IMG/VR virus record: IMGVR_UViG_3300011398_000004
Span: 9,055-73,054 of that record
Strand: one strand, 5' to 3'
Origin: a virus
DNA length: 64,000 nucleotides
Part shown: piece by piece, positions 11,117 to 61,525 of the stretch
How positions within the stretch are numbered: position 1 is the stretch's first letter
Layout: every line of letters starts with the position of its first letter
The notes under the pieces: generated by a model
Database searches by the model: none
What the model was told of the DNA's origin: nothing
The model's input: the letters and a program-made list of their open reading frames with translations, nothing else
Position numbers and translations under genes: made by a program

Positions 11117-11145
11117 TTGCAATCTTTATTAAAATGTGGTATAAT
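11117..11145 (+). promoter_or_regulatory. consensus sigma-70/sigma-A promoter TTGCAA-N17-TATAAT
   Basis: TTGCAA at 11117-11122, exactly 17-nt spacer, TATAAT at 11140-11145. Confidence 0.45.
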
Positions 11146-11152
11146 GATAAAT

Positions 11153-11497
11153 ATGCGAGAGAATTTCCCAAATAATGAGAGAAATATCTATTTCTCAGAA
11201 TATGTCGCACGTCGAAATATGATCAACAGATGTATAAATCCTGATTGTAAAGAATGGAAATGGTATGGTGTTAGAGGAATAAAGGTCTGTGATCGTTGGA
11301 TAAATAGTTTCTTAGATTTTCTTAAAGATATTGGTCCGAAACCATCACCAGGATTAACATTAGGAAGAATAGACAACGATGGGGATTATGAACCTGGGAA
11401 TGTTAAATGGTCAACTAGAAAAGAACAAGCAAATAATCGACGTAGACGAGAATACGATCGTTCACCAGATACAAGATTAAGGCGTAGGCGCATATAG
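11153..11497 (+). CDS. HNH homing endonuclease (YGVRGIKVC...RIDNDGDYEPGNVKWSTRKEQANNRRRR)
   Basis: ORF track 11117..11497 begins with TTG, which is the -35 hexamer itself, so the first in-frame ATG after the -10 box (11153) is preferred. Start is uncertain. Confidence 0.55.
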   Translation: MRENFPNNERNIYFSEYVARRNMINRCINPDCKEWKWYGVRGIKVCDRWINSFLDFLKDIGPKPSPGLTLGRIDNDGDYEPGNVKWSTRKEQANNRRRREYDRSPDTRLRRRRI

Positions 11498-11643
11498 TAA
11501 AGTTGTGCAATATTATCACTATAAGATCTTTTCATAGATCGGCTTCTAAAAGAAGAAATAAAAAGATGTAAACGGATATGGCTCACCTGTGCTATGCTTT
11601 TGTTTGCCGCCAATACCAGCGGCACTCACAAGGAGATAACGCG

Positions 11644-12027
11644 ATGAAATTCGATAACAAGATTGAAGCGATCAAGGCTCTCCGCAACATCCCTCGTGGA
11701 ACTGCGGAGATCTCAATTGCTACCGGCAAGCCTACGCTGGTAGTCAGTGGCGGTGGTCTGGGTTTCAAGGAGGCCAAGGATCTCGTCGAAGCCATCTGCG
11801 AGATGGGTGTCCAATATCATCTGTCTCGGCAGCGTAATGACATTCTGCGTGAATTCTTGCAGACCGAGCTCGCCAAGCTCCCCGCTCCGCCGTCCAACAT
11901 CCCCAACTGCAATCGTTGCGGGAATTCTCTCGTGGACCAGTTCTCGGCTCAGCCCTGCCAGACCTGCTGGGACAAGGAGCAGGATCGTCTGCGAGAAGCG
12001 CAACTCGACGATGACATTCACTTCTAA
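11644..12027 (+). CDS. ribosomal protein L7/L12 C-terminal-domain-like protein, first gene of the high-GC island
   Basis: AAGGAGATAACGCG then ATG. [11 protein letters not shown]...[16 protein letters not shown] matches the L7/L12 CTD core ([24 protein letters not shown]). High-GC codon usage unlike the flanking phage genes. Confidence 0.5.
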   Translation: [127 protein letters not shown]

Positions 12028-12314
12028 TGGTGACAGTCATCGTCATCCTAACCGTGTTTTTCGCGATCCTGCTAATGGTGGTAGGAGTTCCTCTTCTTCT
12101 CTTATGGATAGTCCGTAACTCTATCCAAGCGGCCAAGTATCGCGCTCTTGTTCATGCATCCTCGCAAGTAAGAACTGGATACACGATCGTTTACAAGAGC
12201 GGAAGAAAGACAGAGAAGATGGATCTTGATGGGGCCACGGAAGGAGAGGCCATGATGGATCTTGTCAAGAGGAAGGTCTCCTATGACAAAATTATTTCTT
12301 TAACGAAGAAATAA
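12027..12314 (+). CDS. small membrane protein (one TM helix)
   Basis: TAATG overlap with upstream gene; VIVILTVFFAILLMVVGVPLLLLWIV. Confidence 0.45.
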   Translation: MVTVIVILTVFFAILLMVVGVPLLLLWIVRNSIQAAKYRALVHASSQVRTGYTIVYKSGRKTEKMDLDGATEGEAMMDLVKRKVSYDKIISLTKK

Positions 12315-12400
12315 TAAGAACAAATCTGCTGGCTGCGCCGTGCTATATTACTACTGGCGCAGCGCATACCGCGCGAGCCACATAAAGGAGATAGGAAGAT

Positions 12401-12634
12401 ATGGGAGAGCCAATCAAAATGGAGCATATTCTGGCTCCTGCCGCAAAGGTCAAAGTGGCCTACGGCAACTGGCGCGAGACTTCTCTCGCGCTTGCTCCTG
12501 CCGAATTCAAGGCAGGCACTCAAATCGTCGGAACTTGCGGCTCCTGCTTGGAAGTCGTGGCCGCTGTCAAACTCAAACTCGTGCGTCTCCCCTTCGGGCG
12601 TGGGGAAGCGTGGAAATGCGAGAACTGCCGATGA
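12401..12634 (+). CDS. zinc-ribbon protein (CGSC...CENC)
   Basis: AAGGAGATAGGAAG then ATG at 12401. Confidence 0.45.
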   Translation: MGEPIKMEHILAPAAKVKVAYGNWRETSLALAPAEFKAGTQIVGTCGSCLEVVAAVKLKLVRLPFGRGEAWKCENCR

Positions 12635-12903
12635 TATTTCCACGCTGGAAACGTCGTTCCCATACAGCCAACGTCGCTGATCCCACACAGGTCACTGTGT
12701 GGGAGTTCGGCAAGCGTAACTTCCAAATCTCGCTCGTTGCCTCATGGGGCGTCGAGGCGAAGATTTACTTCATGGGCCGGAAGTTCTGGTCCTATGACGC
12801 GTGGTGGGCAATTCGTCTGTATGACTTCCTCGAGAACCAGTGGGAAGCTCAGCAGATGGATTACGAGGAAGACCCGATGGGTCGGTTGTCGGATTACGAA
12901 TAA
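12616..12903 (+). CDS. hypothetical Trp-rich protein
   Basis: Internal Met of ORF 12340..12903 (MRELPMIFPRWKRR...), overlapping the end of the upstream gene. The upstream part of that ORF looks like GC-driven read-through. Confidence 0.35.
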   Translation: MRELPMIFPRWKRRSHTANVADPTQVTVWEFGKRNFQISLVASWGVEAKIYFMGRKFWSYDAWWAIRLYDFLENQWEAQQMDYEEDPMGRLSDYE

Positions 12904-12916
12904 GGAGATAACGAAG

Positions 12917-13165
12917 ATGAGAAAACGCCAACAGGAGCTGTTCTTCGAGGACAGTTCCTGGAAAGGCTCGAATACCGAGCGTGATGTTATGAGATCCTTC
13001 GAAGCTGCTGGTCGGGAGACTGACATCAGTCACAATGAGCCGTTACCAGAGCGTCGGCGGCATCTGATGAAAGTCGTCTGCCTCGAGTGCTCGACGAAGT
13101 TTACGACGAGATCGCACATCCCGTCGTGTCCCGGCTGTGGAGGTTCGGATATCGAACTTCGGTGA
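12917..13165 (+). CDS. zinc-ribbon protein (CLEC...CPGC)
   Basis: TAAGGAGATAACGAAG then ATG; MRKRQQELFFED...VVCLECSTKFTTRSHIPSCPGCGGSDIELR. Confidence 0.45.
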   Translation: MRKRQQELFFEDSSWKGSNTERDVMRSFEAAGRETDISHNEPLPERRRHLMKVVCLECSTKFTTRSHIPSCPGCGGSDIELR

Positions 13166-13346
13166 ATTTCCGTGATCCTCGTTCGTTTGGACTACAGATA
13201 TGATCTCGCGGCGGTGCCCAAGACCCCGGCTGAACATATCAAGTGCCTGAACTTTCGATAACTTCGAGAGCGGGACGTAGGAGAACTTCTTTGAACTTGA
13301 TAGAATTAAGAACCTTTGAGCTTTTGAAAAAGAGCAAAATAAGATA

Positions 13347-13375
13347 TTGCAATCTTGCGGCGAGCGTGCTACGCT
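13347..13375 (+). promoter_or_regulatory. promoter TTGCAA-N17-TACGCT inside the island
   Basis: TTGCAAtcttgcggcgagcgtgcTACGCT. The -10 is the same type as the phage early promoter family. Confidence 0.35.
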
Positions 13376-13452
13376 GCATTACACGGTGCGGGTGCAATTC
13401 AGCACCCCACCACACGTCGTCAATCAGCGGCAGATAGAGAGCAGAGTGTATC

Positions 13453-13905
13453 ATGAGCAGGAATCAGCGCGGTGGTGGAGTTCAGGAGCAGGAGAAGCCG
13501 GAGACGGAAGTCGCGGTCGAGACCACGGCTGTCGCGGAGAAGGCCAATCGCACGGCGTTCTTCCATTCGCCGCATCCGAAGGTCGGGCAGGCGTCGCGGG
13601 TCAGCTACACGATCCCCGGCGTCTCGGGCAATATCGTCATCTTCCTCAGCATGTTCAAGGACGGCGTCGCGCCTCCCACGCTGACGTTCGATGTCGACCT
13701 CGCGGAGCCGAAGGCGGACGGGAAGCAGGCCAAGGCGGAGGCCGCGGCGCTCAAGGCTCAGGAGAAGGCCGAGAAGGCGCAGGCGCGTCTCGTCGCTCAG
13801 CAGGAGAAGGCGGTGGCGATCGCGGCCAAGGCGCAGCAGGCGTTGGACGCGGCCAAGGCTAAGGTCGGGACGGCGGAGCCGAAGACCGAGGAAGTCACGT
13901 CGTAG
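13453..13905 (+). CDS. hypothetical protein with Ala/Lys/Gln-rich C-terminal coiled-coil or histone-H1-like tail
   Basis: ORF track. Overlapping Arg/Leu-rich ORFs on other frames are GC artefacts. Confidence 0.4.
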   Translation: MSRNQRGGGVQEQEKPETEVAVETTAVAEKANRTAFFHSPHPKVGQASRVSYTIPGVSGNIVIFLSMFKDGVAPPTLTFDVDLAEPKADGKQAKAEAAALKAQEKAEKAQARLVAQQEKAVAIAAKAQQALDAAKAKVGTAEPKTEEVTS

Positions 13906-13962
13906 AGCTCGGATTCTGGTTGCAACCGATGGTATGATCGGTTGCAGTCTAGACGCTCGGAG

Positions 13963-14005
13963 ATAGCCGCAGAGCACTCTCCCTCTGCGGCTATTCTTTT
14001 GTTCT
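13963..14005 (+). terminator. rho-independent terminator closing the island operon
   Basis: Perfect 12-bp stem ATAGCCGCAGAG/CTCTGCGGCTAT, 8-nt loop, then TCTTTTGTTCT. It is preceded by a second hairpin at 13919-13947 (TTGCAACCGAT/ATCGGTTGCA). Confidence 0.55.
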
Positions 14006-14221: not shown

Positions 14222-14252
14222 AAATGTACGAAACCGTACATTGTACGAAACC
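14222..14252. repeat. direct repeat GTACGAAACCGTACA, two copies
   Basis: gtacgaaaccgtacattgtacgaaaccgtacatgg. Confidence 0.4.
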
Positions 14253-14254
14253 GT

Positions 14255-14432
14255 ACATGGCACGGCATATGCTATAGCATATACCATGCCATGCCATAGT
14301 GTCATATGGCACGGTTTATGCTATAGCATAAACCCTGCCATGTCATAATACCGTATGGCATAGGATATGCTATAGCATATCCCATGCCATACCACGGCAT
14401 AGCATGGCACGAGGTATGCTAATAGCATATAC
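14255..14432. repeat. array of four copies of the 14-bp perfect palindrome TATGCTATAGCATA (one copy has a 1-nt insertion) at roughly 48-bp spacing, interleaved with GGCATGG/CCATGCC motifs
   Basis: Read directly: catatgctatagcatatacc, tttatgctatagcataaacc, atatgctatagcatatccc, gtatgctaatagcatatacc. Non-coding; the overlapping ORF 14082..14348 is spurious. Confidence 0.5.
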
Positions 14433-14769
14433 CATACCACATACACGCATACCAATATGTGCATGTGGCATGGTATATGCCCTTTGTACACCTAAAACCC
14501 TGTAAGTGTAGGTGTCTCAATAATAGGTCAAAACCCGTCTAAGGGGCAAACGAGCACCCTAACGGGTGCTGGCATGGCATGGCGGGTGCTACTCACCACG
14601 GGGCTAGGAATGGCAAATAGGGCATATGTCACTTTGTGTCACAAAGTAGCACCCGACACTATGTATCTACAGATATTTTGCGGCACCCTTACGATTTATG
14701 TTGCATTGACCTATATATATGTGCCATACTACGGGTTACTGCAATACCGCAGTGTATGAGAGTAGGTCA

Positions 14770-15433
14770 TATGACAAGAGCAGAGAAAAGAGCAGCCGCT
14801 AAGGCTGCTACGCTGGACACCGTAGCCAACAGCATGTTGGCTGCCGAAGTGGCACCCGCCGAAGTGACACCCGCCGAAGTGGCACCCGCCGAAGTGGCAC
14901 CCGCCGAAGTGGCACCCGCTACCATCCTGCCATTGTGGCTCAGTGCCATACTGGCGTCATTCGCTGGCAGTATCGGCAGTGCATACGCCGTCATTTGCAC
15001 TGGCTATGCCACGTCACCCGCGCGGGTGAAATACAGCATCACGGGACGTGGTGACGCCATTGTGGCGGTACTCTCCCACTTCGTGACACTGCCCCTGCAA
15101 GGTTCGCTCTTGAACCTGTACCCGACGGACACGGAAGTACCGGGGCATACGCTGCACTACGCTGGCGCTAACAGTGTCGGCCACACGTACCGCCTTAGCG
15201 GACACAAGGGTACATGGGTGTTTCGTGGTACGGCCCTTGCGATGCTCGGCACCGTACCGCCTGCCATGCTGCTTTGTGACGTGCCATTGTTGGGCGATAT
15301 CCGTACCGCCAATCTCACCACACCCGAAGCACTCAAGACACCGCACGGACTCACGGTACACAGTGCCATACTTGAAGTAGTGGCACCCGTCGAAGTGGCA
15401 CCCGTCGCACCCGTGGTGCCCGATGCCACGTAG
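14770..15433 (+). CDS. hypothetical protein with (PAEVA)x5 tandem repeat and hydrophobic segments
   Basis: 15-bp DNA tandem repeat gccgaagtggcaccc x5 at ~14848-14922; partial repeats again at the C-terminus (VAPVEVAPVAPVVP); high GC. Start chosen at ATG 14770, since the upstream part of ORF 14636 lies in lower-GC sequence. Confidence 0.4.
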
Positions 15434-15642
15434 GCGCATCACGCTAACACCCGATGGGGGTTTATCCCTCATGGTGTTAGGTGTGGTGTACGTGCTACTG
15501 CTCTTATACGTGTCACGCTAGGCACGTACCGCGCCACGTCACCCGATGCCACTGTGTACCAGTAGCGGTACACAGTGGCATCATAATGTACAGGCATAAG
15601 CCGTGCCACCCCCCAAAAGTGTAATCACGGCTGGCGCGGACG

Positions 15643-16140
15643 TCACAAAATTTGAGGTTTGATATTCATGGCGGAGTTAAAAACTTTAACACGTTCATGA
15701 GCTCTTTGTGCTAATATTTCTAATCTTTTAATTTCAATTTGGTTGATCATATTCAACATAGATATTCTATGTTCTTCAGCTAAAGCCAAATCCCGCTTAT
15801 ATATTCCTATTTCTCTCTTCTCTTCCATTCGCTTCTTTGTTCTTATACGGTGACAATTCGCGCAAACCAAGTCACATTTCTTAATTTCTTCTAATAGGAT
15901 ATTTAGACCAGTAGCATACAATAAATCTGATATATCTTTAAATTTGTCATCCGGGTCTCGATGATCGAAATCCATACATTCAGGTGGAAAACTATTATGA
16001 CAATCCATACAAGGATTGGTTCTTAAACTTTCGATCATTAGACGTCTTTGTTCTTTCCAACCTTCTCGACCATTTATCCATTTCATTTCACCCTCTCTAA
16101 TTCTTTCATTCCCCAATGGAACGCCCATCTTGCAACCCAT
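15643..16140 (-). CDS. HNH endonuclease
   Basis: CMDCHNSFPPECMDFDHRDP...CANCHRIR HNH/zinc motif; GAGGAG Shine-Dalgarno. Confidence 0.6.
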   Translation of the reverse strand: MGCKMGVPLGNERIREGEMKWINGREGWKEQRRLMIESLRTNPCMDCHNSFPPECMDFDHRDPDDKFKDISDLLYATGLNILLEEIKKCDLVCANCHRIRTKKRMEEKREIGIYKRDLALAEEHRISMLNMINQIEIKRLEILAQRAHERVKVFNSAMNIKPQIL

Positions 16141-54612: not shown

Positions 54613-54879
54613 TCATCTTCGATCTATGACAATACCTAGACCTAAGATTCTAGCTTCGAGGATGGAACGGTCTAACTTAGCCTGTAGTAAGCGAGCACTA
54701 CATTCTGTAGCTAATTCTTCCACAGATTTCAATTGACACGATAGAATGTCTCGATATCGAGTGATGTCCTTTGTACTCTGATTACTATAATCTTGAATCG
54801 ATTGTTGAGTAATCATCTCGAATTTTGTCATTCGACGTTCTTTAACCTTCGGTTTACGTGACGCAGTTTTCTTTTTCAT
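54613..54879 (-). CDS. hypothetical protein
   Basis: ORF track. Confidence 0.35.
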   Translation of the reverse strand: MKKKTASRKPKVKERRMTKFEMITQQSIQDYSNQSTKDITRYRDILSCQLKSVEELATECSARLLQAKLDRSILEARILGLGIVIDRR

Positions 54880-55376
54880 TTATCTTCCTCATTAAATTTT
54901 CCGTCTTTTCCTCTTGGTTGTAATATGTGACTATCTTTATAAGCACCTCTTTCTATTCTTTTATGATGATGTTCTTTTACGTGTTCAGTTTCATCTTTAG
55001 GCTCAAGATTATCTGGATGATCATTTAATCTATTTTCATCTATATGATGAGCGATTTCATTTGGTAAAAGTAATCTTCCAAGTTTTTCTTCTAAATTAAT
55101 ATCAGCACGTTTAGCGTATGGAAACCATGACTTACGATGATAATCAGGCTTATAGATTAAGAAATATCCATTTCTAATTATTTCTCCTCCTTTCCAATTA
55201 GGATTATCAATTCCAAATTTATCTTTTCTTGTTAGTTTTTCTCTTTGAAGAATTAGACCAATAATTCCTTTTCCTACATGAAGTTGTTTGGCAATGTCAG
55301 AAATCTTTTGACCAGATGTATATAGACTTATTACCTCCTTCTTTAAAATATCGTAATCTTGGCGACTTCTAGTCAT
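54876..55376 (-). CDS. HNH endonuclease
   Basis: EIAHHIDENRLNDHPDNLEPKDETEHVKEHHH. Confidence 0.6.
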   Translation of the reverse strand: MTRSRQDYDILKKEVISLYTSGQKISDIAKQLHVGKGIIGLILQREKLTRKDKFGIDNPNWKGGEIIRNGYFLIYKPDYHRKSWFPYAKRADINLEEKLGRLLLPNEIAHHIDENRLNDHPDNLEPKDETEHVKEHHHKRIERGAYKDSHILQPRGKDGKFNEEDK

Positions 55377-57597: not shown

Positions 57598-60078
57598 TTA
57601 CTGACTAGTGCCAGTAGGCATTCTTGAACGAGTGCCTAACGTCTTCATCACACCCTCGAATGGCGTTCCTCGAAACAATTGTGACAGAACGTCCGCTGTA
57701 CTGACTCCACTCATCGCAGCCATAGGAGCCAGTGCTACTGTCATCTTACCAATCAATTCTTGATCAGCAAATGCAGTAAGAGCAACTGCCAACTTATCAT
57801 CAACTGCCGCAGCTCTCTTGACGATTTCCTCGGTCTCACCGATGATTCGTTTGAGTTCGACATCGACGAGTCGCTGTTTTGCATCGGCTTGTTGCTTCGC
57901 TATCGCTTCTTCTCTAGCGATAGTTTGTGTATTGATCTCATTGAGAACTAACTGCTCAGCTTTTTGCACTTCTAATTTCTGAGAAGTTATTTCTCCATAC
58001 GACTCAACTTCAGCTAACGATGAAGCTGTAACCGCTGCTGTCTTTCTTAATGCTAGTTCACTGGCCTTCTCAAGTGTCTCAGTGATAGCAGTAGCCGATT
58101 CACGTTTGAGCCTCTCGCTTTCCTTCGTGAATTCTAAGTCCCTCTGCTCCTTCGATAATTTCAATGCAGAGGTAAGAGCATCCGTTTGAGCACTCCCCAA
58201 CAATCCGGCTACAGCAGGATTCTTAATAGAAACATCGAGGATTTCGATGTCGTATACGTGCATTCCGTTTTCATCAAATGTTCGACCGGGGCGTTTTCCA
58301 TCGACTGCTATACCTAATGTAGCATCGCGGATGATATCGATGGTATTACCGTAGAAGTCGGTGATGTTCTTCCTCTTTGCGGCATTGCGGATGATCGACC
58401 GCATATGGTCGCATAGGAGTCGAACATAATTCTCGACAGAGAACCACTTTTGATCATCACCTTCGAAGTTCATTCTGTAGGAAGTAGTCAATGTAACTTG
58501 AACTAAATCCTGTGTTTCAACTGTCATCTGATCGGATACCTTGTTGTTACGCACACGTAGGTATACAGTCGGATACAATTTAACATCAGTCTTCGGCGTT
58601 CCTGTTGACAATTCAATAGGAGCTAACGTCTCATCGTATTCGAGGAGGACATTCTCAGGGCCGATGACTACACGACGCTTCCCTGTCTTGTTCACAATTA
58701 GAACAGCGTAGCCTGCCCAAACTGCGATTGAGACGGCACCCTCATATTTGGTATCGAGAGTGATAGTACGTGGTGGTGTAAATTGAGTTCCACGTGCGAA
58801 AGTATCACCAGCGATACTCTTACTCGTAGACTTCATCAGTTTTTGAGCATCCTCCTGCACCATGAAATTGGAATACATGGATGCTGTAATAGGACGCCCA
58901 ACTTCATAGGCGGATGATCCATCACCTTTATTCAGTTCCTCGAGTTCCTTGTTGACTGCAACAACTTTTTCGTTGTTAGGATACCACAAACGAACAGTCT
59001 TCTCAGAAAGAACACGACGAATGATGACTTCCTTGCGTGGGTCGCATAAGAGCATACGTGGCCCACGGACGAGATTCACTTCGCCAGTGTTACGGTCGAG
59101 GACGTAACGACCTTCCCCCGGTGGGATCGCCACAGCGTAATGCTTTGTTTGATCTCCGTAGCGAATGATGCTATGTTCTTCGCGTTGGAAATAGATGGCC
59201 TGTTCAGCTCCAGTGATAAAGAGTTCATCACCGACTTTGTATTGTTTATCACCATCTTTGTAATCCGCAATTACCTTGATGTATAAGCCGCTATTCGCAT
59301 TGAGTTCAATAGCCCTGAACTTTCGGCTACCATCCTTCAATACGAAAGTCTCAGTGGGTTCCGGGAATACGACTGCCGGCCCTTGAACGAATCTCTTGTT
59401 GCCATTCTCGCCGAGGAGAATACAATATTCGAGACGTTCGAGAGTAACAGCTTCACGTACGTAGTTCTTATTCTCATCGGGGACAACTTTAACTCCCGTA
59501 GGAGGAATGAAGAAGGCAACTTCCGTTCCTTTGATAATAATCAATTGCCCGGGAACGAACTTCTTCATCTCGGATAAAGCTACCGGAGTTGGGGTACCGT
59601 CACCATCTTGTGGTTTTACTACGGCTTTCTTCCAGTTTTCACTTGCTTCAGTATCATTATAGACCTGAGCAAGTAAATATTGATTCGAGCGCAAGTGATG
59701 ACCCTGAATGACATTCGCCATCTGACCAGGCCATAATGAGAAATGGATTGGTCCAGGAAGGTTGACCCTATGACCTACCTTCAATGGTATAGAGACGGAC
59801 GAAGCTCCATCCCGTGGGTAACTGTCCGCAGGATTATACAGTGCGATGTAAAATCCTTCAGGAGCGATTGGATTCGTCTGAATTGCTTTATCGGCATCCG
59901 TTCGTGTAAAACGTCTTTCTTTCTTATTCCATACAACTGGTTGATCAGTATTCGACATACTGATCTTGTTAGGTCCAACTATTGTATTCACAAGCCCCTT
60001 CGTTGTGTCTAACACGAAGGCGAACTCACCAGGAGCTAGTACTAAATCTCGATCTCTACCCAAACTATTTTGATCCAT
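57598..60078 (-). CDS. major vault protein (MVP) homologue
   Basis: 826 aa. N-terminal repeat elements FAFVLDTTKGLVNTIVGPN and YCILLGENGNKRFVQGP resemble MVP repeats (YIHVLDQNSNVSRVEVGPK). The segment ETQDLVQVTLTTSYRMNFEGDDQKWFSVENYVRLLCDHMRSIIRNAAKRKNITDFYGNTIDIIRDATLG aligns residue-for-residue in pattern with the MVP shoulder region [25 protein letters not shown]...[47 protein letters not shown]. A C-terminal Ala/Glu/Lys-rich coiled coil resembles the cap-helix. Confidence 0.55.
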   Translation of the reverse strand: MDQNSLGRDRDLVLAPGEFAFVLDTTKGLVNTIVGPNKISMSNTDQPVVWNKKERRFTRTDADKAIQTNPIAPEGFYIALYNPADSYPRDGASSVSIPLKVGHRVNLPGPIHFSLWPGQMANVIQGHHLRSNQYLLAQVYNDTEASENWKKAVVKPQDGDGTPTPVALSEMKKFVPGQLIIIKGTEVAFFIPPTGVKVVPDENKNYVREAVTLERLEYCILLGENGNKRFVQGPAVVFPEPTETFVLKDGSRKFRAIELNANSGLYIKVIADYKDGDKQYKVGDELFITGAEQAIYFQREEHSIIRYGDQTKHYAVAIPPGEGRYVLDRNTGEVNLVRGPRMLLCDPRKEVIIRRVLSEKTVRLWYPNNEKVVAVNKELEELNKGDGSSAYEVGRPITASMYSNFMVQEDAQKLMKSTSKSIAGDTFARGTQFTPPRTITLDTKYEGAVSIAVWAGYAVLIVNKTGKRRVVIGPENVLLEYDETLAPIELSTGTPKTDVKLYPTVYLRVRNNKVSDQMTVETQDLVQVTLTTSYRMNFEGDDQKWFSVENYVRLLCDHMRSIIRNAAKRKNITDFYGNTIDIIRDATLGIAVDGKRPGRTFDENGMHVYDIEILDVSIKNPAVAGLLGSAQTDALTSALKLSKEQRDLEFTKESERLKRESATAITETLEKASELALRKTAAVTASSLAEVESYGEITSQKLEVQKAEQLVLNEINTQTIAREEAIAKQQADAKQRLVDVELKRIIGETEEIVKRAAAVDDKLAVALTAFADQELIGKMTVALAPMAAMSGVSTADVLSQLFRGTPFEGVMKTLGTRSRMPTGTSQ

Positions 60079-60190: not shown

Positions 60191-60607
60191 TCAATGATTG
60201 ACTTTACCATTACAGCTACGAGAACAAAATATTCCTATCCAAGGTTTACATTTCTTATTTCTAACTTGATGAATAGTTGGATTAAATTCTTTTCTACAAA
60301 ACTCACAAATCCAAATTATCTTAGAAATATCTTCTGTATGATGTTTTCTATGTTCAGGCCTTTTTAAAACTTCAAAATTATTATCTTCATTATTAGCATG
60401 GTTTAAATCTTTATGATGAACTTGTTCATCTATTTCTAAATATCTATTTAATATACATTCCATTCTATATTTAGGATAAGAAACAGTCATCCTTTCAATT
60501 ATCGTACTGTTAATATCTCGCTTAACTAAACAGACATGGAGTCTTCCATCAGGTCTTGAATATGGTCCGTAAACCTCATATTCTTCATACACGATGTTTG
60601 ACTCCAT
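60191..60607 (-). CDS. HNH endonuclease inserted between two tRNA genes
   Basis: HHKDLNHANNEDNNFEVLKRPEHRKHH, plus C-terminal CEFC...CSRSC zinc knuckles. Confidence 0.6.
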   Translation of the reverse strand: MESNIVYEEYEVYGPYSRPDGRLHVCLVKRDINSTIIERMTVSYPKYRMECILNRYLEIDEQVHHKDLNHANNEDNNFEVLKRPEHRKHHTEDISKIIWICEFCRKEFNPTIHQVRNKKCKPWIGIFCSRSCNGKVNH

Positions 60608-60778: not shown

Positions 60779-61525
60779 TTAGAACGGAACGTCCTCTTCT
60801 TCACCAGCAGTTTCAGGATGACCACGGTCGATCTTGACATCAAGATCCTTCATGGCATCCCACATTTCCTCACCGAGTTTGTAGTCTTCCTCGGTGACCC
60901 AATCCGCATTATCGACGAGATAGACCTTATGCGGCTTGGGCTTCAGTTCGAGACCTGAAGTGATTTGGTATCTGCCAGCGAAGATGGGTTTGTTACGCGT
61001 CGCGATTAACCCATTCAGTGCCTTCGCGACTTTGATACCACTCGACTTGAAGCTGAGTGCAATCATCTCACGACGTGGATGACCTTCCCCAGGAAGAATC
61101 ACTGCGAGGAAATCACGGAAGAGAGTAGCCTTCGGCTTCTCACCATTATCCCCCCACTTGAGACGAGGATCACCCATTGGCACGTTAGGATCACGGACAC
61201 CACCGCTGGCGTTCTCAGTGAGAGGGATGAATTCCATTGCACGAAGGGAATCCTTCCTCAGGATTTGAACATAGACTGGCTGAGGGTAGATCTGCTTTGT
61301 TAACGAGTTGAAGAGATCCCCCGGTTTCATACCGGGGACCATTTTAGGGTCACCCTCGGTCACCTCAGGACTGAGAGCCTGAGCAAGGCCCAAGCGAGGA
61401 ATAAGCATATCCTCCTTGGTAATTGTCTCGAGACCACGACGATCACCTTTCTCCATAAACGATGGAGCAGGTGCTAGTCCTCGTTCCTTTTCGACTTTTG
61501 CGACTTCAGTTTTCTCATTTGCCAT
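60779..61525 (-). CDS. candidate T7 gp2.5-like ssDNA-binding/annealing protein
   Basis: 248 aa in a replication/repair neighbourhood; acidic C-terminal tail ending in Phe (ETAGEEEDVPF), as in the gp2.5 family. Weak inference. Confidence 0.3.
   Translation of the reverse strand: MANEKTEVAKVEKERGLAPAPSFMEKGDRRGLETITKEDMLIPRLGLAQALSPEVTEGDPKMVPGMKPGDLFNSLTKQIYPQPVYVQILRKDSLRAMEFIPLTENASGGVRDPNVPMGDPRLKWGDNGEKPKATLFRDFLAVILPGEGHPRREMIALSFKSSGIKVAKALNGLIATRNKPIFAGRYQITSGLELKPKPHKVYLVDNADWVTEEDYKLGEEMWDAMKDLDVKIDRGHPETAGEEEDVPF

What the first reader, a model, noticed from the sequence alone, without database searches (positions are those of the whole stretch)
11644..12027. Phage-island gene encoding a ribosomal L7/L12 C-terminal-domain mimic
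The product contains [11 protein letters not shown]...[16 protein letters not shown]. This matches the most conserved helix-turn of the bacterial L7/L12 C-terminal domain, K(V/I)[22 protein letters not shown]. That surface recruits EF-Tu, EF-G, IF2 and RF3 to the ribosome. The protein lacks the L7/L12 N-terminal dimerisation/L10-binding domain and has a Cys-containing C-terminal extension.

A free L7/L12-CTD mimic could titrate translational GTPases or dock onto ribosomes. That would make it a candidate host-translation hijack or anti-defence factor. The ClpS adaptor shares this fold, so an adaptor role is an alternative.
Basis: partly seen in the sequence, partly recalled or inferred. Interest (0 to 1): 0.7.

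Follow-up and report, generated by a model that had tools for sequence, protein, structure and literature searches.

The report
Phage protein with split bL12 helix motif
A small early gene of an uncultivated phage belongs to an undescribed phage-only family that keeps just the two factor-contacting helices of ribosomal stalk protein bL12, splits them with a beta-hairpin and adds a zinc ribbon and an SSB-like acidic tail; it is not a true L7/L12-domain or ClpS mimic, and its function is unproven.

Summary
The ORF (11644-12027, +, 127 aa) is real and conserved, and the motif is there. The link to bL12 is specific. A family profile finds almost only bL12 in the PDB (best E 1e-4), as two collinear pieces matching helices alpha4 and alpha5. 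hhalign gives 95.7% probability, and 41 of 85 family members hit Pfam Ribosomal_L12.

The gene sits in a near-complete 64-kb siphophage genome, not an island. It opens a high-GC, HNH-flanked cassette that is syntenic in other metagenomic contigs.

New points:
- The family has about 85 clusters, all from viral or metagenomic contigs.
- None was found in 50,697 cultured phage records or 185,579 species genomes.
- The close subfamily has a conserved CxxC...CxxC zinc ribbon.
- 28% of members end in D-D-I-[K/R]-F, against about 0.15% of background ORFs. This resembles the SSB C-terminal tip.

Best reading: a bivalent protein-protein adaptor for early infection, partners unknown. Phage bL12-domain proteins are already known, so this is a new variant of a known kind.

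The parts
11630..11635 (+). Shine-Dalgarno sequence AAGGAG, 8 nt before the ATG
   Evidence: Read directly from the sequence.
11644..12027 (+). The gene: 127-aa protein plus stop codon. GC is 55% in a 41% GC genome.
   Evidence: ORF list. Homologues at 47-53% identity all start MKF. An identical protein is on ENA and Logan contigs. GC.
11644..11841 (+). N-terminal family domain (residues 1-66): helix 6-14, beta-hairpin 20-26/29-35, long helix from residue 41
   Evidence: AlphaFold2 with a 65-sequence alignment gives pLDDT 92.4 and pTM 0.66. Family alignments A3 and A4.
11656..11685 (+). Helix 1, [10 protein letters not shown] (residues 5-14), matching bL12 alpha4 (K65-R73)
   Evidence: Profile positions 4-17 align to T. 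maritima bL12 residues 68-81. I7, A9, I10, K11 and R14 are each conserved in at least 57 of 65 sequences.
11686..11754 (+). 23-residue insertion (residues 15-37) forming a beta-hairpin at the position of the bL12 alpha4/alpha5 turn
   Evidence: The two bL12 matches are contiguous in bL12 (81 then 82) but about 20 profile positions apart in the family. The motif-to-motif gap is 23-40 residues in the 77 of 85 members where both helix motifs were located. Strands come from the models.
11755..11799 (+). Helix 2 motif, [15 protein letters not shown] (residues 38-52), matching bL12 alpha5 (G77-E88)
   Evidence: Pfam Ribosomal_L12 hit at residues 38-52. hhalign probability 95.7%. L41, K45, E49 and M52 are each conserved in at least 63 of 65 sequences.
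11908..11967 (+). Probable zinc ribbon, C89-N-R-C92 ... Q-P-C105-Q-T-C108
   Evidence: The four Cys plus N90, G93, Q103 and P104 are invariant in the 5-sequence alignment of the target and its closest homologues. The Cys pairs also occur in P0006, P0014 and P0028. There is only a weak Pfam zf-FPG_IleRS hit (E 0.059). Metal binding is inferred.
12007..12024 (+). C-terminal acidic-aromatic tip, DDDIHF-COOH
   Evidence: 24 of 85 family representatives end in [DE][IVLP]xF, with consensus D-D-I-[K/R]-F. Among 671 six-frame ORFs the motif occurs 5 times; 4 are family genes, leaving 1 of 667 as background. The last block of the model has the lowest confidence (pLDDT 61) and residues 124-127 are coil.
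12027..12314 (+). Next gene, with start overlapping the stop (TAATG): 95 aa with an N-terminal hydrophobic stretch. Syntenic partner of the target.
   Evidence: 56-61% identical proteins lie downstream of the homologue in L006, L007 and L008. No Pfam, PHROG or NCBIfam hit.
12401..13905 (+). Rest of the high-GC cassette: genes 12401-12634 (77 aa), 12631-12903 (90 aa), 12917-13165 (82 aa, zinc-ribbon-like) and 13453-13905 (150 aa)
   Evidence: Three of the four are conserved in L006 and/or L007. Weak zinc-ribbon Pfam hits for 12917-13165. Cassette GC is 55%.
13962..13995 (+). Terminator-like hairpin (13-bp stem followed by a T-run) closing the cassette
   Evidence: Consensus scan only.
11153..11497 (+). 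HNH endonuclease gene flanking the cassette on the left, preceded by a promoter-like site at 11117-11145
   Evidence: PHROG 3377, E 1.5e-34. Promoter-like TTGCAA-17-TATAAT (consensus match only).
15643..16140 (-). HNH endonuclease gene flanking the high-GC region on the right
   Evidence: PHROG 3106, E 2.7e-24.

Best explanation
The gene encodes a small, modular early protein from a previously unannotated family. The family was found only in viral and metagenomic contigs.

Shown:
- It has a 60-residue N-terminal domain whose two helices are homologous to helices alpha4 and alpha5 of the bL12 C-terminal domain. The charged and hydrophobic residues that bL12 uses to contact translational GTPases are retained.
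- The helices are rebuilt on a different minimal scaffold, alpha/beta-hairpin/long-alpha.
- This is followed by a CxxC...CxxC zinc ribbon and a flexible acidic tail ending in a C-terminal Phe.

Inferred: it acts as a bivalent protein-protein adaptor during early infection. One partner would be read by the bL12-like helix pair, most plausibly the G domain of a translational GTPase or another factor that normally reads the ribosomal stalk. A second partner would be docked by the DDDIHF-COOH tip in the way SSB's DDDIPF tip docks onto its client proteins. The zinc ribbon acts as a rigid spacer or third contact.

My confidence that it is a modular interaction adaptor built on a bL12-derived helix pair is about 0.45. 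Each specific partner assignment is about 0.25.
For: Gene and family:
- The protein is conserved at 47-53% identity, with syntenic neighbours.
- About 85 representatives at 50% identity share the N-terminal domain.

bL12 relationship:
- PDB hits to the family profile are almost all bL12 (14 of 15). They fall into two collinear pieces that match alpha4 and alpha5.
- hhalign probability is 95.7%.
- 41 of 85 members hit Pfam Ribosomal_L12, and nothing else recurs.
- The near-invariant positions I7, I10, K11, R14, L41, K45 and E49 lie in or next to the factor-responsive bL12 segments 66-70 and 80-85 (PMC3505967).
- Charged residues that stay invariant after the rest of the fold is lost suggest a conserved surface. 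This is inference.

Adaptor architecture:
- The region between the domain and the tail varies across the family. It can be a zinc ribbon, a Cys/His cluster, a coiled coil, or absent.
- The D-D-I-[K/R]-F terminus recurs in 28% of members, against about 0.15% of background ORFs. 48% of members end in an aromatic residue.
- P0021 and P0023 carry two tandem N-domains.

Early-gene setting:
- Homologues sit in runs of small co-directional ORFs.
- In IMG/VR contigs they lie in operons that also carry a helicase and a kinase-like ATPase, next to a terminase gene.
- In the window the gene is 1.6 kb downstream of a primase-polymerase/VapE helicase.
Against: - No binding was tested, and no multimer modelling was possible.
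- I could not see model coordinates, so I7, I10 and L41 may be buried against the hairpin rather than exposed.
- The same helix-pair motif occurs in many non-ribosomal bacterial proteins of unknown function. Examples are the signal-peptide or transmembrane repeat proteins P0011-P0013, P0087 and P0090-P0091. It may therefore be a self-sufficient structural module with no link to GTPases.
- bL12 C-terminal domain-factor affinity is only 0.1-0.4 mM.
- The tail has His, or K/R in the family, where SSB has its conserved Pro.
- Only 28% of members carry the full tail, so it is not essential to the family.
- The conserved neighbours are all of unknown function.
Confidence: 0.45

Rival explanations
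1. It is a replication or recombination hub adaptor. The functional centre is the C-terminal DDDIHF tip, which copies the SSB C-terminal tip (DDDIPF). It would recruit or compete for SSB-client proteins of the host, or the phage's own replisome. The N-domain is only a scaffold or oligomerisation unit with no link to translation.
For: - The tail consensus D-D-I-[K/R]-F is enriched roughly 190-fold over background ORFs and persists across unrelated linkers.
- SSB-Ct (DDDIPF) is a known docking hexapeptide for many genome-maintenance proteins (PMC5872125 abstract).
- The only other ORF in the window with such a tail is a 248-aa Pam3_Gp34-like protein ending EEEDVPF. It sits near a UvrD-like helicase gene and, further off, an ATP-dependent DNA ligase gene.
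- The target lies just downstream of the primase/helicase.
- IMG/VR homologues sit in operons that contain a helicase.
Against: - Position -1 is K, R, H or Q rather than the Pro typical of SSB tips. The importance of that Pro (the ssb-113 P176S allele) is from my own knowledge.
- In the model the tail follows a helix rather than a long disordered linker.
- 72% of members lack the motif.
- Proximity to replication genes is normal for any early gene.
- This reading does not explain why the bL12-type residues are near-invariant.
Confidence: 0.22
2. It is a small nucleic-acid-binding regulator. The zinc ribbon and the helix/hairpin domain, possibly as a dimer, would bind DNA or RNA to control early phage or host gene expression.
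For: - Small size, an early-operon position and a four-Cys zinc ribbon conserved in the close subfamily.
- The alpha/beta-hairpin/alpha unit could pair through its hairpin edges. This is inference.
- There are only weak, non-significant structural echoes: phage 21 Q protein at E 1.6, and Sub1 and AbrB at E above 3.
Against: - No significant fold or profile match to any DNA- or RNA-binding family.
- The zinc ribbon is confined to one subfamily, and most members have none.
- The acidic tail is atypical for a nucleic-acid binder.
Confidence: 0.13
3. It proposes a free L7/L12 C-terminal-domain mimic that stoichiometrically titrates EF-Tu, EF-G, IF2 and RF3, or that docks onto the ribosome in place of bL12.
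For: - The motif match is real and covers the factor-contact helices.
- Phage-encoded bL12-domain proteins exist, and one was detected in ribosome fractions (PMC6375957).
Against: - It is not the C-terminal-domain fold.
- It has no N-terminal domain for uL10 binding, and no alpha6 or K95 region for uL11 contact.
- bL12 C-terminal domain-factor Kd is 0.1-0.4 mM, which is too weak to titrate abundant factors. Factor abundance is from my own knowledge.
Confidence: 0.08
4. It is a ClpS-like adaptor for a protease.
Against:
- No Pfam ClpS hit in any of the 85 members.
- No ClpS chain among the listed structural matches.
Confidence: 0.01
5. It is a chance or low-complexity motif in a protein unrelated to bL12.
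For: - The single-sequence evidence is marginal: Pfam E 1.1e-3, below the gathering score, and phmmer against the PDB gives E 0.47.
Against: - The signal grows with family depth.
- Both helices match in the right order with the same residue spacing.
- 14 of the 15 PDB hits are bL12.
Confidence: 0.03

Closest known systems
C-terminal domain of bacterial ribosomal protein bL12 (L7/L12), Pfam PF00542
   Same: The two helices carry the same conserved pattern, K-[IV]-x-[AV]-I-K-x-[LV]-R and [10 protein letters not shown], in the same order. These are the segments that respond to trGTPase binding (66-70 and 80-85).
   Different: A 23-40 residue beta-hairpin is inserted at the alpha4/alpha5 turn. Beta1, beta2, alpha6 and beta3 are absent. 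Helix 2 runs on as a long helix (LGV[RQ]x[FY]L). There is no N-terminal dimerisation/uL10-binding domain or hinge. The Pfam score is below the gathering threshold, and there is no fold match.
Phage-encoded bL12-domain proteins (Mizuno et al. 2019, PMC6375957), e.g. Ralstonia phage RSB3 (98 aa) and Salmonella phage FSL SP-076 (418 aa)
   Same: They are phage-encoded, lack the bL12 N-terminal domain, retain factor-contact residues, and occur alone or fused to other sequence. Independent acquisition by phages has been proposed.
   Different: Those proteins contain the whole C-terminal domain (HHpred probability up to 99.9%, 30-40% identity). The present family keeps only the split helix pair. It gives no tblastn hit in 50,697 cultured phage records and has its own C-terminal tail.
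Non-ribosomal 'L7/L12-like' repeat proteins of bacteria (e.g. P0013, annotated 'ribosomal protein L7/L12' in Burkholderiales; also P0011, P0012, P0016, P0087, P0090, P0091)
   Same: They use the same helix-pair motif outside the ribosome, often in several copies. P0021 and P0023 of the present family also have two copies.
   Different: Those proteins keep a contiguous alpha4-turn-alpha5 or a whole C-terminal domain, and have signal peptides or transmembrane segments. Their function is unknown to me.
SSB C-terminal tip (DDDIPF), and by analogy the acidic, Phe-terminated tails of phage T7 gp2.5 and gp4 (the T7 comparison is from my own knowledge)
   Same: An acidic run, a hydrophobic residue at -2 and a C-terminal Phe with a free carboxylate, at the end of a modular protein.
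   Different: Position -1 is K, R, H or Q instead of Pro. There is no OB fold, so it is not an SSB. No long disordered linker is predicted.
ClpS (PF02617)
   Same: Only the superfamily-level relation between ClpS and the full bL12 C-terminal domain.
   Different: No profile or structural similarity to this protein.

Membership tests
bL12 C-terminal domain (Pfam Ribosomal_L12, PF00542) | Score at or above the Pfam gathering threshold (25.9 bits) | tested here: not met
   19.7 bits, E 1.1e-3, covering only residues 38-52.
bL12 C-terminal domain (Pfam Ribosomal_L12, PF00542) | Conserved alpha4 and alpha5 sequence motifs in the right order | tested here: met
   Profile positions 4-17 match bL12 68-81, and 38-50 match 82-94. 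hhalign probability 95.7%. 41 of 85 members hit the model.
bL12 C-terminal domain (Pfam Ribosomal_L12, PF00542) | Contiguous helix-turn-helix, with a turn of about 4-6 residues between alpha4 and alpha5 | tested here: not met
   23 residues are inserted in the target. The motif-to-motif gap is 23-40 residues in the 77 members where both motifs were located.
bL12 C-terminal domain (Pfam Ribosomal_L12, PF00542) | Compact beta1-alpha4-alpha5-beta2-alpha6-beta3 fold | tested here: not met
bL12 (whole ribosomal protein) | N-terminal dimerisation/uL10-binding domain plus flexible hinge | tested here: not met
   Helix 1 starts at residue 6, and all homologues start MKF.
bL12 (whole ribosomal protein) | Binds translational GTPases and stimulates their GTPase activity | not testable with these tools
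   This needs binding assays or multimer models. Only residue conservation could be checked.
ClpS (PF02617) | Profile or fold similarity to ClpS | tested here: not met
   hhalign probability 0.07%. No Pfam hit in 85 members. Absent from the listed fold-search matches.
Phage-encoded bL12-domain proteins (Mizuno et al. 2019) | Phage-encoded protein with a full-length bL12 C-terminal domain detectable by HHpred or Pfam | tested here: not met
   It is phage-encoded, but only the helix pair aligns. There is no tblastn hit to any cultured phage record.
SSB C-terminal tip (SSB-Ct) | C-terminal Phe preceded by a hydrophobic residue at -2 and an acidic run | tested here: met
   The target ends D122-D123-D124-I125-H126-F127. 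The family logo has D at -4 (16 of 24), D at -3 (21 of 24), I at -2 (19 of 24) and F at 0.
SSB C-terminal tip (SSB-Ct) | Pro at position -1 (DDDIPF) | tested here: not met
   The target has His. The family has K 12, R 5, Q 2, E 2, H 1, D 1, and no Pro listed among 24.
SSB C-terminal tip (SSB-Ct) | Attached to an OB-fold ssDNA-binding domain through a disordered linker | tested here: not met
   No SSB or OB hit. The tail follows a predicted helix at residues 106-123.
SSB C-terminal tip (SSB-Ct) | Docks into the pockets of SSB-interacting proteins | not testable with these tools
   No multimer modelling or binding assay was available.
Zinc ribbon (CxxC-Xn-CxxC) | Four conserved Cys in two CxxC knuckles | tested here: met
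   C89, C92, C105 and C108 are invariant in the 5-sequence alignment. They are also present in P0006, P0014 and P0028.
Zinc ribbon (CxxC-Xn-CxxC) | Match to a curated zinc-ribbon model above threshold, or demonstrated metal binding | tested here: inconclusive
   zf-FPG_IleRS scores 13.7 bits against a 21.3-bit cut-off. The model shows only isolated bridges at residues 88 and 95. Metal content was not testable.
The new 'split bL12 helix-pair' phage family (defined here) | N-terminal NKIxAIKxxR, a hairpin insert (motif-to-motif gap 23-40 residues), then GLKEAKDxVEAxMxLGVxx[FY]L, in a small protein encoded on viral or metagenomic contigs | tested here: met
   Alignments A3 and A4. The target scores 198 bits against the profile built from the target and its four closest homologues, so that score is partly self-referential.

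The most novel reading that the evidence does not exclude
Phages have excised just the two GTPase-contacting helices of the ribosomal stalk protein. They rebuilt them on a new minimal scaffold and coupled them to an SSB-like docking tail. The result would be a family of free 'stalk-surface' adaptors that capture a translational GTPase, or another stalk-reading factor, and tether it to a second machine during host takeover or anti-defence.
Probability: 0.15. Interest if true: 0.8.

Novelty: new variant of a known kind. Interest (0 to 1): 0.5.

Why it matters
If the bL12-like helices still bind translational GTPases, this family would be a natural minimal version of the ribosomal stalk's factor-recruiting surface. 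It would also be a new route by which phages touch translation, distinct from the whole-domain bL12 and bS21 genes already reported in phages.

If the tail is the working part instead, the family would be a phage-encoded competitor or recruiter for SSB-type docking pockets.

Either way, the work defines a phage-only family with no Pfam, PHROG or NCBIfam model. It has about 85 clusters at 50% identity and spans contigs of 42-70% GC. It has clear, testable point mutants: K11, R14, the four Cys and F127.

The practical value today is modest. No function is demonstrated, and the general idea of phage bL12-like proteins is already published.

Tried and rejected
- ClpS-fold alternative: rejected (hhalign 0.07%; no fold hit).
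- Whole-domain bL12 mimic: rejected on fold and on the Pfam threshold.
- Single-sequence phmmer against the PDB: only non-significant bL12 hits (E 0.47). Significance appeared only with the family profile.
- PHROGs, NCBIfam and Rfam: nothing for the target or its region.
- PADLOC was not run.
- tblastn of the target and two divergent members against 50,697 cultured phage records, plus megablast of the first 25 kb of the window: no match.
- Third homologue search with the 85-sequence alignment: swamped by true bL12 words, so it added only a few ids.
- Genome collection of 185,579 species: the profile-derived pattern gave 600 stretches, none confirmed. A hand-made EAIMALGV pattern gave 69 loci, and none matched the family HMM (best E 0.0086, against 2e-25 for the positive control). 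Sensitivity is limited to those two patterns.
- The afdb50 fold library was unavailable.
- The BFVD viral structure library gave no match (best E 0.21).
- Literature searches for the tail motif and for Pam3 gp34 function found nothing useful.
- I could not inspect model coordinates. Whether helix 1 packs on helix 2 as in bL12, and which conserved residues are exposed, stays open.
- Conserved neighbours gave no functional clue, as all are of unknown function.
Full report
**1. Observation**

The ATG is at 11644, the stop at 12025-12027, and the product is 127 aa. An AAGGAG ribosome-binding site lies 8 nt upstream. A longer reading from an ATG at 11578 is possible, but every homologue begins MKF, so 11644 is the start.

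The quoted peptide is correct. Compared by eye with E. coli bL12 (sequence from memory), KIEAIKALR matches K65-R73 at 5 of 9 positions. [12 protein letters not shown] matches G77-E88 at 11 of 12. The two pieces are 23 residues apart in the protein.

**2. Setting**

The window is not an island. It is nearly the whole of a 64,284-bp metagenomic contig (ENA ERZ27267659, k141_265606). Over the 20 kb compared, the two differ by one mismatch and by 45 nt in a 15-nt tandem repeat.

The contig carries phage structural and replication genes:
- large terminase, portal, major head protein and tape-measure protein;
- a primase-polymerase/VapE helicase (Pfam VapE-like, 3.4e-68);
- a UvrD-like helicase and an ATP-dependent DNA ligase;
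- two tRNAs.

The target opens a 55% GC cassette (11644-13905) in a 41% GC genome. HNH endonuclease genes flank the high-GC region. A terminator-like hairpin at 13962-13995 closes the cassette.

The 95-aa gene whose start overlaps the target's stop is syntenic with homologues of the target on other metagenomic contigs (L006, L007). So are the 77-, 82- and 150-aa genes, in L006 and/or L007. None of the cassette genes has a significant Pfam, PHROG or NCBIfam match.

**3. Family**

Close homologues are few (P0002-P0006, 40-53% identity) and come only from metagenomes. An exhaustive profile search of 1.84 billion cluster representatives found 98 proteins at E<=0.001. After removing canonical bL12-like repeat proteins, 85 remain.

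These 85 are small, mostly 60-200 aa. Nearly all start with the same domain:
- M-x-F-x-N-K-I-x-A-I-K-A-[LV]-R;
- a variable stretch with beta-turn signatures such as ETGRYEI or DAGELVI;
- G-L-K-E-A-K-D-x-V-E-A-[IC]-M-x-L-G-V-[RQ]-x-[FY]-L.

What follows the domain differs between members. It can be nothing, a coiled coil, a CxxC...CxxC ribbon as here, or a Cys/His cluster. P0021 and P0023 have two tandem copies of the domain.

Genomic contexts are runs of small co-directional unannotated ORFs. In IMG/VR contigs of 28-50 kb the genes sit in early operons that also contain a helicase and a kinase-like ATPase, next to a terminase gene.

Searches outside metagenomes were negative:
- three diverse members gave no tblastn hit in 50,697 cultured phage records;
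- two pattern scans of 185,579 species genomes found no member.

Host GC of the carrying contigs ranges from 42% to 70%.

**4. Relationship to bL12**

The single sequence is marginal. Pfam Ribosomal_L12 gives E 1.1e-3 and 19.7 bits against a 25.9-bit cut-off. phmmer against the PDB gives E 0.47.

The family is not marginal:
- 41 of 85 members hit Ribosomal_L12 (best 4.9e-6), and no other Pfam model recurs.
- The 65-sequence domain profile hits 15 PDB sequences, 14 of them bL12, best E 1.1e-4.
- The match comes as two collinear pieces. Profile positions 4-17 match T. maritima bL12 68-81 (alpha4), and positions 38-50 match 82-94 (alpha5).
- In bL12 these pieces abut. In the family they are about 20 profile positions apart.
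- hhalign against E. coli bL12 gives 95.7% probability over 15 columns.

The best-conserved family positions are I7 (57/65), A9 (59/65), I10 (59/65), K11 (63/65), R14 (63/65), L41 (63/65), K45 (63/65) and E49 (64/65). Most lie in or next to bL12 segments 66-70 and 80-85. Those segments shift when EF-G or EF4 is titrated into the isolated C-terminal domain (PMC3505967).

I conclude that the helix pair is homologous to bL12 alpha4-alpha5. It is not a coincidence.

**5. It is not the bL12 C-terminal domain**

Nothing corresponds to beta1, beta2, alpha6 or beta3. A full-length AlphaFold2 model (pLDDT 78) predicts helix 6-14, strands 20-26 and 29-35, and a helix from 41 to 78. The Cys region and a helix at 106-123 follow. 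A domain-only model built with 65 sequences (pLDDT 92.4, pTM 0.66) gives the same N-terminal elements, up to its end at residue 66.

Fold searches found nothing significant:

| Search | Query | Best score |
|---|---|---|
| Foldseek vs PDB | full-length model | E 1.6 |
| Foldseek vs BFVD | N-domain model | E 0.21 |

No bL12 or ClpS chain appeared among the matches listed (top 50, 60 and 50 respectively). ClpS shows no profile similarity (hhalign 0.07%). The bL12 N-terminal domain is absent.

By the membership tests, the protein fails as a bL12 C-terminal domain and as a ClpS. It passes only the helix-motif criterion.

**6. C-terminal modules**

C89, C92, C105 and C108, plus N90, G93, Q103 and P104, are invariant in the alignment of the target and its four closest homologues, and the Cys pairs are also present in P0006. 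This indicates a zinc ribbon. Metal binding is inferred, and the curated models score below threshold.

The target ends DDDIHF. Across the family, 24 of 85 representatives end in [DE][IVLP]xF, with consensus D-D-I-[K/R]-F. 29 end in Phe and 41 in an aromatic residue.

Among 671 six-frame ORFs of the window and related loci, 5 carry the motif, and 4 of those are family genes. Background is therefore 1 in 667. That one ORF is a 248-aa Pam3_Gp34-like protein ending EEEDVPF. It sits in the phage's replication region, and its function is not established.

The motif persists across unrelated linkers, which marks it as a short linear docking motif. Its nearest known analogue is the SSB C-terminal tip, DDDIPF (PMC5872125). 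It differs in having a basic or polar residue instead of Pro at position -1.

**7. Mechanism**

What is shown: the gene is real, conserved and phage-borne. It has a bL12-derived helix pair on a new scaffold, a conserved Cys4 module and an enriched C-terminal acidic-aromatic tip.

What is inferred: a bivalent adaptor with two interaction modules.
- For the N-domain, the most economical partner is whatever reads the same residues on bL12, namely a translational GTPase G domain. Invariant charged residues after the rest of the fold was lost argue for a conserved surface.
- The same motif is also common in non-ribosomal bacterial proteins of unknown function, and I could not check solvent exposure in the model.
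- For the tail, an SSB-type pocket on a host or phage replication or repair protein is the closest analogy.

I put about 0.45 on the adaptor architecture and about 0.25 on each partner class.

Simple titration of elongation factors is unlikely. The bL12 C-terminal domain binds factors with Kd of 0.1-0.4 mM, and EF-Tu is very abundant (general knowledge). Ribosome docking is also unlikely, because the uL10- and uL11-contact elements are missing.

**8. Comparison with what is known, and novelty**

Phage genes for bL12 domains without the N-terminal domain are already described. They occur alone or fused to other sequence, and they retain EF-G/EF-Tu contact residues (Mizuno et al. 2019, PMC6375957). 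The concept is therefore not new.

What is new:
- a distinct family, found only in viral and metagenomic contigs, in which only the helix pair survives, split by a hairpin;
- the zinc-ribbon subfamily;
- the SSB-like tail.

No Pfam, PHROG or NCBIfam model covers the family. I rate it a new variant of a known kind, with interest of about 0.5.

**9. Limits**

- No binding, multimer or coordinate-level analysis was possible.
- The family census rests on cluster representatives.
- Absence from cellular genomes rests on two sequence patterns.

Noticed in passing
window 57598-60078 (-): An 826-aa phage ORF carries Pfam MVP_shoulder (3e-26), Vault_3 (1.7e-10) and Band_7/SPFH (1.5e-5) domains and has no PHROG match. 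A major-vault-protein-like/SPFH protein looked unusual to me in a siphophage genome.
   Followed up: no
window 60779-61525 (-): A 248-aa Pam3_Gp34-like protein (PF23977, 5.9e-26) ends in the SSB-tip-like tail EEEDVPF. It sits near a UvrD-like helicase gene, two tRNA genes and, further off, an ATP-dependent DNA ligase gene. It may be the phage's own ssDNA-binding or hub protein. There was no PDB sequence match, and I found no literature on its function.
   Followed up: partly
window 6183-6776 (-), 11153-11497 (+), 15643-16140 (-), 54876-55376 (-), 60191-60607 (-): Five HNH endonuclease genes are scattered through the genome. Two bracket the high-GC region, and one lies between the two tRNA genes. 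This suggests homing-endonuclease-driven mosaicism.
   Followed up: partly
window 11600-13950 and 14700-15600: Two patches of 55-70% GC lie in a 41% GC phage genome. The first is a conserved five-to-six-gene cassette that is syntenic in L006 and L007. It was probably acquired from a phage with higher GC.
   Followed up: partly
window 14843-14919, inside ORF 14816-15433 (+): A 15-nt tandem repeat (5.1 copies, encoding P-A-E-V-A repeats) differs by exactly 45 nt (three units) between the window and the ENA contig L001. The two are otherwise identical apart from one mismatch. This is a variable-number repeat within a coding region.
   Followed up: partly
window 14225-14439: An intergenic array just after the cassette terminator has a 17-nt unit repeated twice that looks palindromic, followed by 3.7 copies of a 49-nt unit at 76% match. 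It could be an iteron, origin-like or regulatory array.
   Followed up: no
window 13446-13905: Gene callers disagree here. The ENA record calls a 138-aa product in one frame, equivalent to window 13446-13862. Logan calls the 150-aa frame 13453-13905. Protein conservation in L007 (74% identity over 91 aa) supports the 150-aa frame.
   Followed up: yes
proteins P0021 and P0023 (L004:9277-9819): Members of the family from a 70% GC contig carry two tandem copies of the split helix-pair domain. This recalls the multi-copy arrangement of bL12 itself and of non-ribosomal L12-like repeat proteins.
   Followed up: no
proteins P0015, P0017 and P0064: A subfamily replaces the zinc ribbon with a conserved Cys/His cluster, CGAxDxxGxWxCNLxxGHxGxxHxDHVSGxxFxAG, which no model recognised.
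   Followed up: no
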